NCBI GenBank assembly: GCA_958439205.1
Contig: OY288189.1
Location: forward strand, 511,960 to 575,959
Length of the DNA: 64,000 nt
DNA from: an uncultured Allorhizobium sp.
GTDB lineage: Bacteria > Pseudomonadota > Alphaproteobacteria > Rhizobiales > Rhizobiaceae
Reading direction: 5' to 3'
Both the position numbers and the translations under genes were made by a program. The first letter of the stretch is position 1. Each line of letters opens with the position of its first letter. Below the pieces are notes generated by a model. It did not search any database. It saw nothing but the letters and a program-made list of their open reading frames with translations, and was not told the origin of the DNA. Below are positions 42,158 through 44,152 of the stretch, in pieces.

Positions 42158-43189
42158 TCAGGCGGCTGCGCGCGGCTTGATCAGCCCGCGATTGACCAGA
42201 AGCTCTGCAATCTGGATCGCGTTCAGAGCGGCGCCCTTGCGCAGGTTGTCGGACACGACCCACATGTTGAGGCCGTTTTCGACAGTTGCGTCTTCGCGAA
42301 TACGCGAGATGTAGGTCGCGTCTTCGCCGGCGCATTCGAGCGGGGTGATGTAGCCGCCGTTCTCATGCTTGTCGATGACCAGGCAACCCGGGGCGTCGCG
42401 CAGGATGTCACGGGCCTGATCGGCGGTGATCTCGTTTTCGAACTCGATGTTGACCGATTCCGAATGGCCGATGAAGACCGGTACGCGCACGGCCGTGCAG
42501 GTCACCTTGATCTTCGGATCGAGCATCTTCTTGGTTTCGGCCAGTACCTTCCACTCTTCCTTCGTATAGCCGTCTTCCATGAAGCTATCGATGTGCGGAA
42601 TGACGTTAAAGGCGATGCGCTTGGTGAACTTCTTGGATTCGACCGGGTCGGCCACGAAGACGGCGCGGGTCTGGGTGAAGAGTTCGTCCATGCCTTCCTT
42701 GCCGGCGCCCGAAACGGACTGGTAGGTCGAGACCACCACGCGCTTGATCTTCGCGAAATCATGCAGCGGCTTCAGAGCCACGACCAGCTGGGCAGTCGAG
42801 CAATTCGGGTTGGCGATGATGTTCTTCTTCTTGAACCCGGCAATGGCGTCCGGATTGACCTCGGGCACGATCAGCGGCACTTCGGAATCGTAGCGCCAGG
42901 CCGAGGAGTTATCGATGACGACGCAGCCCTGCGCGCCGATCTTCGGCGACCACTTCTGGGAGATCGTGCCGCCGGCCGACATCAGGCAAATGTCGGTGTC
43001 GGAAAAATCGTAATTGTCGAGGTTGGAAACCTTGAGAACCTTGTCCCCGAAGGAGACTTCGGTGCCCTGCGAACGCGCCGAGGCGAGCGCCACGACTTCC
43101 GATGCCGGAAATCCGCGTTCGGAAAGGATGTTCAGCATTTCGCGACCGACATTGCCGGTGGCGCCTACGACTGCAATCTTGAAACCCAT
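42158..43189 (-). CDS. asd: Aspartate-semialdehyde dehydrogenase
   Basis: VVGATGNVG, IANPNCST, STYQSVSGAG, CTAVRVPVFIGHSE, DNLRKGAALN; true start ATG 43189 (MGFKIAVVG). Confidence 0.98.
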   Translation of the reverse strand: MGFKIAVVGATGNVGREMLNILSERGFPASEVVALASARSQGTEVSFGDKVLKVSNLDNYDFSDTDICLMSAGGTISQKWSPKIGAQGCVVIDNSSAWRYDSEVPLIVPEVNPDAIAGFKKKNIIANPNCSTAQLVVALKPLHDFAKIKRVVVSTYQSVSGAGKEGMDELFTQTRAVFVADPVESKKFTKRIAFNVIPHIDSFMEDGYTKEEWKVLAETKKMLDPKIKVTCTAVRVPVFIGHSESVNIEFENEITADQARDILRDAPGCLVIDKHENGGYITPLECAGEDATYISRIREDATVENGLNMWVVSDNLRKGAALNAIQIAELLVNRGLIKPRAAA

Positions 43190-43298
43190 GTCTATGCTCT
43201 CTTTCTGTCTCTCCGCGGATGGTGAGGGGGAAGCTCGCGACAGGACGCAACCTTCCTTGTCCCCGGCCGTGCCGGGGAGAGAGCGGTGGCCGAAGACG

Positions 43299-43418
43299 TC
43301 AGACGGTTTTCGTCGTCGTTTTGGCCTTGGTCGTGGATGCAAGAGAATGGCATGCGCCGCCGGCAGCAGACTGCTGCAGGAGGTGGAAGACCGCAATGGG
43401 TTGCCCGAAAGCGTGCAT
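43299..43418 (-). CDS. Putative asd leader peptide (39 aa, Thr/Lys-rich C-terminus)
   Basis: GAGGAA-N8-ATG, then MHAFGQPIAVFHLLQQSAAGGACHSLASTTKAKTTTKTV-stop, ending 109 nt before the asd start. Confidence 0.7.
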   Translation of the reverse strand: MHAFGQPIAVFHLLQQSAAGGACHSLASTTKAKTTTKTV

Positions 43419-43600
43419 GGACCGAATTCCTCTTCGCGGCGAGGGATTACAAGGTTTTCAGCGCGAGTCAAGCCGACAGGCCGCTGGCTTTGGCGAAAAG
43501 AGAATGTCGCCTGGCCGATCGCCGTGTCACGGTGACACCGAAAGGCTTGTCCGCCCCCCTTCGTCATGGAAATAAGGACCATTCCGAACGGAGCAACCGC

Positions 43601-44152
43601 ATGAGCCTCGACATACGCGACCTGACCCCCGACGACCTCTCAGAGGTGACGTCGATCTATGCCGATGCGGTCGCGAACGGAACGGCGAGCTATGAGATCG
43701 TGCCTCCTGATCTTTCGGAGATGTCCGAGAGATATCAAGCGCTCAAGGCAAAGGGCTACCCCTACCTGGCGGCTGTCGACGAGCAAGGTTCTCTTTCCGG
43801 CTACGCCTATGCTTCCGCCTTCAGGACGCGTCCGGCCTATCGATGGCTGGTGGAGGATTCCATCTACATTCATCCATCCGCGCGTGGCCGGGGCGTGGGA
43901 AAGGCCTTGCTGAACGCGCTGCTCGACCGCTGCGAAACAGCGGGCTTCCGACAGATGGTCGCGGTGATCGGCGGTGCCAGCGAGGCGTCCATGGCGGTCC
44001 ACCGTAGCTGTGGTTTCGAGTTTTCGGGCAGACTGGTGGGGACCGGTTTCAAGCACGGGCTTTGGCTCGATACCGTCTTCATGCAAAAGGCGATGGGTGA
44101 GGGCAATACGACCTTGCCCGATCTTTCGACCTATCCTGGCGTCATGCCTTAA
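43601..44152 (+). CDS. GNAT N-acetyltransferase (phosphinothricin/methionine sulfoximine acetyltransferase-like)
   Basis: NGTASYE, GYAYASAFRTRPAYRW, EDSIY, RGRGVGKALL, GFKHGLWLD; start ATG 43601. Confidence 0.9.
   Translation: MSLDIRDLTPDDLSEVTSIYADAVANGTASYEIVPPDLSEMSERYQALKAKGYPYLAAVDEQGSLSGYAYASAFRTRPAYRWLVEDSIYIHPSARGRGVGKALLNALLDRCETAGFRQMVAVIGGASEASMAVHRSCGFEFSGRLVGTGFKHGLWLDTVFMQKAMGEGNTTLPDLSTYPGVMP

What the first reader, a model, noticed from the sequence alone, without database searches (positions are those of the whole stretch)
43299..43472. Candidate Thr/Lys-sensing leader-peptide attenuator upstream of asd
An unannotated 40-codon ORF (43418-43299) has its own SD (GAGGAA, 8 nt spacing) and lies just downstream of a CTTGAC -35 (43472-43467; the -10 is imperfect). 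It ends ACG ACC AAG GCC AAA ACG ACG ACG AAA ACC GTC TGA, which is 6 Thr and 3 Lys in 10 codons, while the preceding 28 codons contain none. Asd makes the branch-point precursor of Lys and Thr (also Met and Ile), so the control codons match the pathway products, as in thrL-type attenuators. The rhizobial attenuators I know of control trpE(G) and branched-chain genes. I do not recall a characterised dual Thr/Lys leader on asd, but I cannot exclude a prior computational prediction.
Basis: partly seen in the sequence, partly recalled or inferred. Interest (0 to 1): 0.85.

Follow-up and report, generated by a model that had tools for sequence, protein, structure and literature searches.

The report
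Thr/Lys leader peptide controlling asd
A short, translated-looking reading frame rich in threonine and lysine codons lies in front of asd, the gene at the branch point of threonine and lysine synthesis, and is conserved across a whole bacterial order; it is very probably an amino-acid-sensing switch, and its Sinorhizobium counterpart was already flagged in 2023 but never tested.

Summary
The 39-codon ORF 43418..43299(-) ends in TTKAKTTTKTV* and has its own SD. Its CTTGAC -35 box keeps a fixed spacing in related genomes.

It is far beyond chance. An upstream sense ORF with a Thr/Lys-rich end precedes asd in:
- 24 of 24 genomes of the genus;
- 84% of 97 other genera of the family;
- 23 of 54 other families of the order.

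Antisense controls gave 0% and shuffled controls 0.1-0.2%. Codons and stop codons differ between lineages, third positions vary most, and the N-terminal part is free to change.

It is not new as an idea. The S. meliloti orthologue SEP5 was shown to be translated and was called a possible leader peptide (Hadjeras 2023, PMC10117765). Its regulation was never tested, and it was said to be confined to Sinorhizobium.

The window has no intrinsic terminator and no Rfam match. A covariation-supported RNA domain lies between the ORF and asd. Folding with ribosome footprints predicts a switch: stalling at codons -7 to -3 moves a G-rich segment from one partner to another, which should break the structure that buries the asd ribosome-binding site.

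Translational control is my preferred output and Rho-dependent termination is the main rival. Neither has been shown.

The parts
43445..43472 (-). Promoter: -35 box CTTGAC (43472-43467) and -10-like box GTAATC (43450-43445).
   Evidence: CTTGAC is invariant in the genus. It lies 170-175 nt upstream of the leader stop in 48 of the loci of the window's type, 53's count. An xTAxxx box follows after 16 nt. The simple sigma-70 scan did not call it. No transcription start data were available.
43427..43432 (-). Shine-Dalgarno sequence GAGGAA of the leader ORF, 8 nt before its ATG.
   Evidence: Read directly from the sequence. A purine-rich SD sits at the same position across the genus.
43299..43418 (-). 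Leader ORF of 39 codons plus TGA: MHAFGQPIAVFHLLQQSAAGGACHSLASTTKAKTTTKTV. It is the orthologue of S. meliloti SEP5.
   Evidence: Searches show the conservation. SEP5 is also 39 aa, ends in KTTAKTTTKTV and is translated. The identical peptide occurs in a record titled Rhizobium sp. TH135.
43305..43334 (-). Control-codon run ACG ACC AAG GCC AAA ACG ACG ACG AAA ACC (T T K A K T T T K T). The predicted effective stall sites are codons -7 to -3, at 43322-43308.
   Evidence: Position-specific conservation: -7 Lys, -6 to -4 Thr, -3 Lys, -2 Thr, -1 Val. Third codon positions vary most. The rare Lys codon AAA makes up 81% of leader Lys codons against 13% in genes of the window.
43288..43326 (-). Hairpin P0. 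Segment S1 (GGCC, 43326-43323, made of the Ala codon and the base before it) pairs with S2 (GGCC, 43291-43288). The hairpin encloses the Thr/Lys codons, a small GACG-AAAAC-CGUC hairpin and the stop codon.
   Evidence: Folding energy -12.5 kcal/mol, z = -2.2. In the family alignment 80% of cells are paired. The inner small hairpin covaries through synonymous Thr codons, ACG/CGU against ACC/GGU, 42 against 30 sequences.
43259..43297 (-). Alternative helix ALT: S2 (GUCUUCGGCC, 43297-43288) pairs with S4 (GGCCGGGGAC, 43268-43259). It cannot coexist with P0 or with P2.
   Evidence: Folding energy -18.8 kcal/mol, against -13.6 for P2 alone. The footprint model predicts 9.2-9.7 bp of ALT only when the A-site is at codons -7 to -3. 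Support from other sequences is limited to compensatory differences between sequence types.
43261..43277 (-). Hairpin P2: CCCCGGC-ACG-GCCGGGG.
   Evidence: Folding energy -13.6 kcal/mol, z = -3.4. 97-98% of cells are paired, and one pair covaries C-G against G-C, 53 against 26 sequences.
43229..43256 (-). Variable hairpin P3. No U-tract follows it in this genome.
   Evidence: Folding energy -14.8 kcal/mol, z = -3.5. All 8 pairs show changes on both sides. No terminator-like site was found on this strand.
43276..43284 (-). Pyrimidine tract S3 (GCUCUCUCC), an anti-SD-like segment. It can pair with S7 (helix P1) or, shifted in register, with the asd SD core AGAGAGC.
   Evidence: P1 is 96% paired in the family alignment and 94% in the order alignment, with U-A against C-G covariation. 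In the window's own fold GCUCUCU pairs with AGAGAGC.
43196..43214 (-). Purine tract S7 (GGAGAGA, 43214-43208) followed by the extended asd SD (AGAAAGAGAG, 43206-43197; AGAGAGC is 43202-43196).
   Evidence: Invariant in the genus. It is the 3' arm of P1. The domain 43284-43196 folds at -44.4 kcal/mol, z = -3.4, and 0 of 200 shuffles fold as well.
42158..43189 (-). asd, aspartate-semialdehyde dehydrogenase, 343 aa. This is the regulated gene.
   Evidence: NF011456 at 1e-158 and TIGR01296 at 7.9e-142.

Best explanation
This is a ribosome-mediated leader-peptide attenuator of asd that senses the supply of charged Thr-tRNA and Lys-tRNA. It is orthologous to S. meliloti SEP5.

Supported by comparison:
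- A promoter about 20-25 nt upstream drives one mRNA that starts with a 39-codon ORF.
- Only the C-terminal Thr/Lys codons of that ORF, its length and its stop position are conserved.
- Between the stop codon and asd lies a structured domain with covariation support: P1, P2 and P3.

Inferred from folding models:
- With no stalled ribosome, hairpin P0 ties the segment just after the stop codon (S2) to the Ala-Lys codons (S1). P2 then forms. The pyrimidine tract S3 closes a -44 kcal/mol domain onto the purine tract and the asd SD, so asd is poorly translated.
- A ribosome at the stop codon covers S2 and gives the same result.
- When Thr or Lys is short, the ribosome stalls with its A-site at codons -7 to -3 (K T T T K). 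It covers S1 and leaves S2 free. S2 captures the G-rich arm S4 in helix ALT (-18.8 against -13.6 kcal/mol for P2). P2 cannot form and S3 is held in the ALT loop, so the asd ribosome-binding site stays open and asd is made.
- Loss of translation may add Rho polarity as a secondary effect.
For: Sensor:
- Conservation in the genus, family and order against null controls.
- The motif lies before asd in 78 of the 80 genomes examined; the other two hits were at a locus edge.
- Coding-type variation by codon position.
- Bias to the rare Lys codon AAA: 81% in leaders, 13% in genes of the window, 0 of 24 in asd.
- Translation of the orthologue (PMC10117765).

RNA domain:
- Family alignment: 90.9% of cells paired against 82.0% in shuffles, 22 pairs with changes on both sides against 11.4, covariation score 0.256 against 0.131, slid controls at most 0.073.
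- Order-level alignment: 85.2% against 65.9%, score 0.359 against 0.136.

Switch, on transcripts cut before S7:
- In 49 sequences of the window's type, ALT has 9.2-9.4 bp and P2 0.3 bp when the A-site is at codons -7 to -3.
- ALT has under 0.4 bp and P2 5.8-6.2 bp when the A-site is at -2 or at the stop. Free RNA has P0 4.4 bp plus P2 5.4 bp.
- The window itself gives ALT 9.2-9.7 bp in the stalled states and 0-0.01 bp otherwise.

If S3 is held in the ALT loop, the unpaired probability of the SD rises from 0.50 to 0.88 in the window, and from 0.54 to 0.77 on average for its type.
Against: - No experiment shows that asd responds to Thr or Lys through this leader.
- Equilibrium folding of full-length leaders shows no consistent opening of the SD when the ribosome is stalled. 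It shows slightly more pairing of the post-stop tract with the RBS region. The ON state therefore depends on a kinetic trap and on S3 not forming a pseudoknot with S7.
- ALT is supported only by differences between sequence types, not by covariation within a type. It is weak in the Mesorhizobium-like and short types (ALT 2.5 bp against P2 4.5 bp).
- GCUCUCU and AGAGAGC never vary in the window's type, so that register has no covariation support.
- The alignments used for the pair counts were fitted to the model.
Confidence: 0.55

Rival explanations
1. The sensor is the same, but the output is Rho-dependent premature termination. The C-rich, G-poor tract that starts right after the leader stop codon would be a Rho loading site. 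It would be exposed after normal termination of the leader and hidden in helix ALT, or by the stalled ribosome, when Thr or Lys is short.
For: - The first 30 nt after the stop are 53% C and 20% G in the window, and 51% C, 21% G and 4% A across leaders.
- The same C-rich, A-poor composition in the first third of the spacer is kept in other families.
- There is no intrinsic terminator.
- There is a precedent in S. meliloti: the duf1127 uORF attenuator has no terminator and has a C>G region starting just after the uORF stop. tnaC is a further precedent (PMC12218461).
Against: - In both predicted folds most of the C-rich tract is base-paired: P0, P2 and P1 in one, ALT in the other.
- The tract is short.
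- Its composition is also explained by its pairing with the purine tracts, which has covariation support.
- No 3'-end data exist.
Confidence: 0.2
2. Classical thrL-type transcription attenuation: an intrinsic terminator forms when the leader is fully translated.
For: In 16 of 48 Mesorhizobium-like loci the variable hairpin P3 is followed by UUUUCU. An ancestral or lineage-specific terminator is therefore possible.
Against: - The window has CUUCCCCCUC after P3 and no terminator-like site on this strand.
- A hairpin with at least 4 U in the next 6 nt is found in only 4 of 53 loci of the window's type and 1 of 21 short-type loci. In the window's type the hairpins called lie at scattered places in the spacer.
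- No Rfam leader family matches.
Confidence: 0.03
3. The ORF is translated but does not sense amino-acid supply. The structured 5' leader would be controlled by something else, such as a small RNA, a protein or RNA decay. Alternatively the peptide acts in trans, as peTrpL does, or the nascent KTTTKTV peptide arrests the ribosome in response to a free metabolite.
For: - SEP5 is stable enough to be detected when tagged.
- The N-terminal motif MRGLLMALFAFDFPGH is conserved in many Mesorhizobium-like genera, which hints at some constraint on the peptide or on the RNA there.
Against: - What is conserved is the identity of two amino acids made from the product of Asd. Lys and Thr swap for each other, and the N-terminal part diverges fully between genera.
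- The rare-codon bias and the placement of the control codons inside P0 fit codon-level sensing.
Confidence: 0.1
4. It is a chance ORF, or the A/C-rich stretch is conserved for reasons of RNA alone and is not translated.
For: Within the genus the run is nearly invariant at the nucleotide level, and part of it pairs in P0.
Against: - Antisense and shuffled controls gave 0-0.2%.
- Other families use different codons and different stop codons.
- Third codon positions vary most, and they follow genomic Thr codon usage rather than an A/C-rich rule.
- The orthologue is translated.
Confidence: 0.01

Closest known systems
SEP5 of Sinorhizobium meliloti 2011 (CP004140.1:3620220-3620339; Hadjeras et al. 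2023, Microlife uqad012, PMC10117765)
   Same: Orthologue. It has 39 aa, lies in the 5' UTR of the same gene and ends in KTTAKTTTKTV with six Thr and three Lys codons. Its translation was shown by Ribo-seq and by Western blot of a tagged version, and the authors called it a possible leader peptide.
   Different: The N-terminal 28 residues are unrelated. The paper calls the downstream gene 'aspartate dehydrogenase', says SEP5 is conserved only in Sinorhizobium and proposes no RNA mechanism. Here the element is found across the family and in 23 of 54 other families, before aspartate-semialdehyde dehydrogenase.
thrL leader of the E. coli thrABC operon (Rfam Thr_leader)
   Same: A leader peptide whose control codons name end products of the aspartate pathway. 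Ribosome position chooses between alternative RNA helices.
   Different: thrL uses Thr and Ile codons, controls thrABC and ends in an intrinsic terminator. Here the codons are Thr and Lys, the target is asd, there is no terminator and no Rfam match. The details given for thrL are from my own knowledge.
trpL attenuator (rnTrpL / peTrpL) of S. meliloti trpE(G)
   Same: A leader-peptide attenuator studied in a genus of the same family, Sinorhizobium.
   Different: trpL is a 14-aa, leaderless ORF followed by a terminator that releases a small RNA (abstracts listed). The asd leader is 39 aa, has an SD and has no terminator.
Translational attenuation of the ermC / cat type
   Same: A ribosome stalled in a leader ORF re-pairs downstream segments, so that the SD of the regulated gene is released from a sequestering helix.
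   Different: Those systems sense antibiotics through nascent-peptide arrest. Here stalling would come from uncharged tRNA at Thr and Lys codons. This comparison rests on my own knowledge.
Rho-dependent uORF attenuators: E. coli tnaC and the S. meliloti duf1127 uORF (PMC12218461)
   Same: No intrinsic terminator, and a C>G tract that starts directly after the uORF stop codon.
   Different: Rho dependence was not tested here. The C-rich tract is largely paired in a structure that has covariation support.

Membership tests
Ribosome-mediated leader-peptide attenuators (general class) | A short ORF with its own ribosome-binding site in the 5' leader of a biosynthetic gene, on the same transcript. 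| tested here: met
   The SD, ATG and a conserved promoter are in place upstream, and no promoter-like site lies between the ORF and asd. The shared transcript is inferred. For S. meliloti the paper places SEP5 in the 5' UTR.
Ribosome-mediated leader-peptide attenuators (general class) | A run of codons for the end-product amino acids, conserved while the rest of the peptide is not. | tested here: met
Ribosome-mediated leader-peptide attenuators (general class) | Mutually exclusive RNA helices whose choice depends on where the ribosome sits. | tested here: met
   Met in silico only. P0 and P2 compete with ALT: ALT has 9.2-9.7 bp with the A-site at codons -7 to -3 and about 0 bp otherwise. The prediction is weaker in the other sequence types.
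Ribosome-mediated leader-peptide attenuators (general class) | The leader ORF is translated. | not testable with these tools
Ribosome-mediated leader-peptide attenuators (general class) | The downstream gene responds to starvation for the cognate amino acids. | not testable with these tools
   No experiment was found in the searchable literature.
Classical transcription attenuators (thrL type; Rfam Thr_leader and relatives) | An intrinsic terminator (GC-rich hairpin followed by a U-tract) between the leader ORF and the gene. | tested here: not met
   None on this strand in the window. 4 of 53 loci of the window's type have a hairpin followed by at least 4 U in 6 nt.
Classical transcription attenuators (thrL type; Rfam Thr_leader and relatives) | A match to a curated Rfam leader model. 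| tested here: not met
   Scanning 42900-43900 with cmscan up to E = 10 gave only chance hits far below the gathering scores.
Rho-dependent uORF attenuators | A C-rich, G-poor tract downstream of the uORF stop codon and no intrinsic terminator. | tested here: met
   53% C and 20% G in the first 30 nt after the stop. The composition is conserved across the order.
Rho-dependent uORF attenuators | Termination depends on Rho. | not testable with these tools
   This needs bicyclomycin or Rho depletion together with 3'-end mapping.
SEP5 orthologue group | Same length, same position before asd and the same C-terminal motif. | tested here: met
   Searches give the SEP5 sequence. The covariance model built from relatives matches the window at 121.5 bits.
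Lysine riboswitch (L-box) | A match to the Rfam lysine riboswitch model upstream of an aspartate-pathway gene. | tested here: not met
   No such hit.

The most novel reading that the evidence does not exclude
The asd leader would be a terminator-less attenuator that senses two amino acids and is conserved across the order that holds Rhizobium, Sinorhizobium and Mesorhizobium. Stalling at five Lys/Thr codons would free the segment just after the stop codon. That segment would capture the G-rich arm of a hairpin and so dismantle a three-helix domain that buries the asd ribosome-binding site. Control would act on translation initiation, by a segment order (1:2, 2:4, 3:4, 3:RBS) that differs from the classical 1:2 / 2:3 / 3:4 scheme.
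Probability: 0.45. Interest if true: 0.6.

Novelty: new member of a known kind. Interest (0 to 1): 0.5.

Why it matters
Asd makes the common precursor of lysine, diaminopimelate, threonine, methionine and isoleucine. How its expression is set in Rhizobium and its relatives has not been characterised. If this leader works as proposed, it adds three things:
- a new target gene and a new codon pair (Thr plus Lys) to the set of attenuators;
- a case in which one element covers a large part of an order that includes the main legume symbionts;
- a tractable model for attenuation without an intrinsic terminator in a GC-rich bacterium.

It also corrects the published view that SEP5 is confined to Sinorhizobium. 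The strong preference for the rare Lys codon AAA in these leaders could serve as a test of the idea that control codons are chosen for their sensitivity to starvation.

Tried and rejected
- Rfam scan up to E = 10: only chance hits.
- Simple promoter and terminator scan: nothing on the asd strand. The two terminator-like hits are on the opposite strand.
- RNAalifold on raw MAFFT alignments: it recovered only fragments, because the variable hairpin is misaligned. I replaced it with a covariance model and realignment.
- RNAduplex between broad halves of the spacer: unspecific, median z = -1.1.
- Equilibrium accessibility of the SD under ribosome-footprint constraints on full-length leaders: no consistent change. 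The expected pairing between the post-stop tract and the RBS region even rises on stalling. A purely thermodynamic model of SD opening is therefore rejected, and only a co-transcriptional version remains.
- Intrinsic terminator as the conserved output: rejected for the window.
Vitreschak 2004 is not held.
As a result I could not lay RNA-seq reads, survey the whole class, or scan the window's own genome for other Thr/Lys leaders.

Full report
1. What is in the window

On the minus strand there is a CTTGAC box at 43472-43467. A GTAATC box follows 16 nt later, at 43450-43445. Then come GAGGAA (43432-43427) and, 8 nt on, an ATG at 43418. This ATG opens a 39-codon frame that ends at TGA 43301-43299. 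The peptide is MHAFGQPIAVFHLLQQSAAGGACHSLASTTKAKTTTKTV. Its last eleven residues hold six Thr and three Lys, and the first 28 hold none.

The next gene starts 109 nt after the stop codon, at 43189. It is aspartate-semialdehyde dehydrogenase (NF011456 at 1e-158, TIGR01296 at 7.9e-142). The K-T-T-T-K-T codon pattern occurs once in the 64-kb window, where 0.02 matches are expected.

2. Is it more than a chance ORF?

I took the asd upstream regions of three sets of genomes:
- 24 other genomes of the same genus;
- 97 further genera of the same family;
- 92 loci from 54 other families of the same order.

All 24 genomes of the genus have an ORF ending in (S)TTKAKTTTKTV*. Its stop lies 105-113 nt before asd, and its N-terminal part differs from species to species.

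With the criterion 'at least 6 Thr/Lys in the last 12 codons of a sense ORF that ends within 260 nt of asd', the results were:

| Set | Fraction that meets the criterion |
|---|---|
| Same genus | 100% (24 of 24) |
| 97 other genera of the family | 84% |
| 92 loci from other families | 46% (23 of 54 families) |
| Antisense strand of the same regions | 0% |
| Dinucleotide shuffles | 0.1-0.2% |

Other families have different peptide ends, such as FTTTKTTKKTKTT*, KTTTIKTTKTTTV* and TKATTKTTTTT*. They also use TAA and TAG as well as TGA. In the last eight codons, entropy rises from the first to the third codon position (0.59, 0.84, 1.14). Lys and Thr replace each other at some positions. This is the signature of selection on which amino acids are encoded, not on a nucleotide motif.

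The records are titled Rhizobium, Neorhizobium, Pararhizobium, Sinorhizobium/Ensifer, Shinella, Agrobacterium vitis, Mesorhizobium, Phyllobacterium, Nitratireductor and others. In 78 of the 80 loci I examined, an asd-like start follows 101-120 nt downstream. The other two hits lie at the edge of their locus. A record titled Rhizobium sp. TH135 carries the identical leader.

3. Prior art

Hadjeras et al. 2023 (PMC10117765) describe S. meliloti SEP5, a 39-aa sORF with the sequence MRPKGSSIAALNLPAHHAGPISHFSLARKTTAKTTTKTV. It lies between SM2011_c04408 and c04410. It was detected by Ribo-seq and by Western blot of a tagged version. [quoted passage not shown]

I found no test of regulation and no follow-up work. 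The statement about conservation is not right: the N-terminal part diverges, but the control-codon tail and the architecture are found across the order. NCBIfam has no model for the peptide. The exact sequence is in public protein collections, where the one named member of its cluster and the S. meliloti entries are called 'hypothetical protein'.

4. What lies between the leader and asd

There is no Rfam match and no terminator-like site on this strand. Across relatives, a hairpin followed by at least 4 U in the next 6 nt is present in:
- 4 of 53 loci of the window's type, at scattered places in the spacer;
- 16 of 48 Mesorhizobium-like loci, where the variable hairpin is followed by UUUUCU;
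- 1 of 21 loci of the short type.

A thrL-like terminator is therefore not the conserved output, and it is absent here.

What is conserved is a set of segments. I name them as follows, with window coordinates:
- S1: GGCC, made of the Ala codon and the base before it, 43326-43323.
- S2: a C/U-rich segment that starts right after the stop codon; the part used in pairing is 43297-43288.
- S3: a pyrimidine tract, GCUCUCUCC, 43284-43276.
- P2: a GC hairpin, 43277-43261. Its 3' arm is part of S4 (43268-43259).
- P3: a variable hairpin, 43256-43229.
- S7: a purine tract, GGAGAGA, 43214-43208.
- The asd SD: AGAAAGAGAG, 43206-43197.

I built a covariance model from 24 seed sequences and realigned the relatives. 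The nested structure consists of P0 (S1 with S2), a small hairpin in the last codons, P1 (S3 with S7), P2 and P3.

| Measure | Family alignment, 97 sequences | Order-level alignment, 38 sequences |
|---|---|---|
| Cells paired, observed vs shuffled | 90.9% vs 82.0% | 85.2% vs 65.9% |
| Pairs changed on both sides, observed vs shuffled | 22 vs 11.4 | 28 vs 19.8 |
| Covariation score, observed vs shuffled | 0.256 vs 0.131 | 0.359 vs 0.136 |
| Highest covariation score with partners slid by 1-3 columns | 0.073 | 0.062 |

One detail is telling. The small hairpin is kept through paired synonymous Thr codons, ACG...CGU in some lineages and ACC...GGU in others (42 against 30 sequences). The caveat is that these alignments were fitted to the model, so they lean towards it.

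5. The predicted switch

S4 has a second possible partner. GUCUUCGGCC (S2) pairs with GGCCGGGGAC (S4) over 10 bp. I call this helix ALT. It excludes both P0 and P2.

Energies in the window:

| Element | Energy (kcal/mol) |
|---|---|
| P0 | -12.5 |
| P2 | -13.6 |
| ALT | -18.8 |
| P3 | -14.8 |
| Closed domain 43284-43196 | -44.4 (z = -3.4; 0 of 200 shuffles fold as well) |

In the closed domain GCUCUCU pairs with the SD core AGAGAGC and stacks on P2.

I then folded transcripts cut just before S7, which is the co-transcriptional situation, and forced a 27-nt ribosome footprint to stay unpaired. For 49 sequences of the window's type the expected numbers of base pairs were:

| State | P0 | P2 | ALT |
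|---|---|---|---|
| Free RNA | 4.4 | 5.4 | 1.1 |
| A-site at codons -7 to -3 | 0 | 0.3 | 9.2-9.4 |
| A-site at codon -2 or at the stop | 0.2-3.4 | 5.8-6.2 | under 0.4 |

For the window itself ALT is 9.2-9.7 bp in the stalled states and 0-0.01 bp otherwise. The codons whose occupancy flips the structure are exactly K T T T K (43322-43308).

If S3 is then held in the ALT loop, the unpaired probability of the SD rises from 0.50 to 0.88 in the window, and from 0.54 to 0.77 on average for its type.

6. Limits of that model

Equilibrium folding of full-length leaders shows no consistent opening of the SD on stalling. The free S2 tends instead to add pairs with the RBS region. The ON state therefore needs ALT to form first and to persist, and needs S3 not to reach S7 as a pseudoknot.

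ALT has support only from differences between sequence types. It is weak in the Mesorhizobium-like and short types. I hold the sensor half as well supported: control codons, P0, and release of S2 on stalling. I hold the output half as inferred.

7. The main rival output

The first 30 nt after the stop codon are 53% C and 20% G in the window. Across leaders they are 51% C, 21% G and 4% A. The same composition holds in other families.

S. meliloti has a uORF attenuator, before a duf1127 gene, that lacks an intrinsic terminator and has a C>G tract starting just after the uORF stop. Its authors assign it to Rho (PMC12218461). Rho-dependent termination, either as the primary output or as polarity that follows poor asd translation, cannot be told apart from direct RBS control with these tools.

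8. Codon choice

Leaders use AAA for 332 of 408 Lys codons. Genes in the window use AAA for 13% of Lys codons, and asd uses it for 0 of 24. This fits the idea that control codons read by a minor tRNA are more sensitive to starvation. That reading is my inference. Part of the bias may instead serve the A-rich loop of the small hairpin.

9. Verdict

The element is real, conserved and very probably regulatory. It is an orthologue of a published but uncharacterised candidate. It belongs to the known class of leader-peptide attenuators, with a target gene and a codon pair for which I know of no characterised precedent, and with an expression platform that is not a classical terminator.

Read-level evidence, a class-wide survey and a scan of the window's own genome were therefore not possible.

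Noticed in passing
Loci L060, L065, L068, L073, L082, L104, L107, L110, L117, L126, L128 (asd upstream regions of other genera of the family): There is a second, short leader subtype. The ORFs are much shorter, in some cases only about 10-25 codons, and end in Thr/Lys/Ile-rich tails such as MRMLTKTKTTI*, ...RSPIKTTII* and MSALTFTKTTIII*. The stop lies only 77-90 nt before asd. Ile is made from Thr, so this subtype resembles the Thr-plus-Ile logic of thrL.
   Followed up: partly
Loci L064, L067, L087, L088, L090, L095, L098, L101, L105, L106, L119 (Mesorhizobium-like genera): The N-terminal part of the leader is itself conserved as MRGLLMALFAFDFPGH..AGR across many genera, unlike in the window's genus. 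The cause is unknown. It could be a constraint on the peptide or an RNA structure inside the ORF.
   Followed up: no
Loci L059-L127, variable hairpin P3: In 16 of 48 Mesorhizobium-like loci P3 reads (A)CCCGC-N8-GCGGGUUUUCUCC and so looks like an intrinsic terminator. In the window's type the U-tract is replaced by CUUCCCCCUC. The output mechanism may differ between lineages.
   Followed up: partly
window 43305-43334 and leaders of all loci: Leaders strongly prefer the rare Lys codon AAA: 81% of leader Lys codons, against 13% in genes of the window and 0 of 24 in asd.
   Followed up: partly
L130 (JAIBEK010000042.1, MAG titled Arenimonas sp.): A contig binned as a gammaproteobacterium carries the exact Rhizobiaceae-type asd leader motif with an asd-like start downstream. 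It is probably a mis-binned contig.
   Followed up: no
PMC10117765, text on SEP5: The paper names the gene downstream of SEP5 'aspartate dehydrogenase'. In Sinorhizobium loci the same motif lies 101-120 nt before an aspartate-semialdehyde dehydrogenase start (L137, L139, L199). This looks like a naming slip in the paper.
   Followed up: partly
window 43291-43314, plus strand: The simple scan calls two terminator-like hairpins with T-runs on the plus strand. They are the complement of the Thr/Lys codon run. No plus-strand gene ends there, so they are most likely a by-product of the leader sequence.
   Followed up: no
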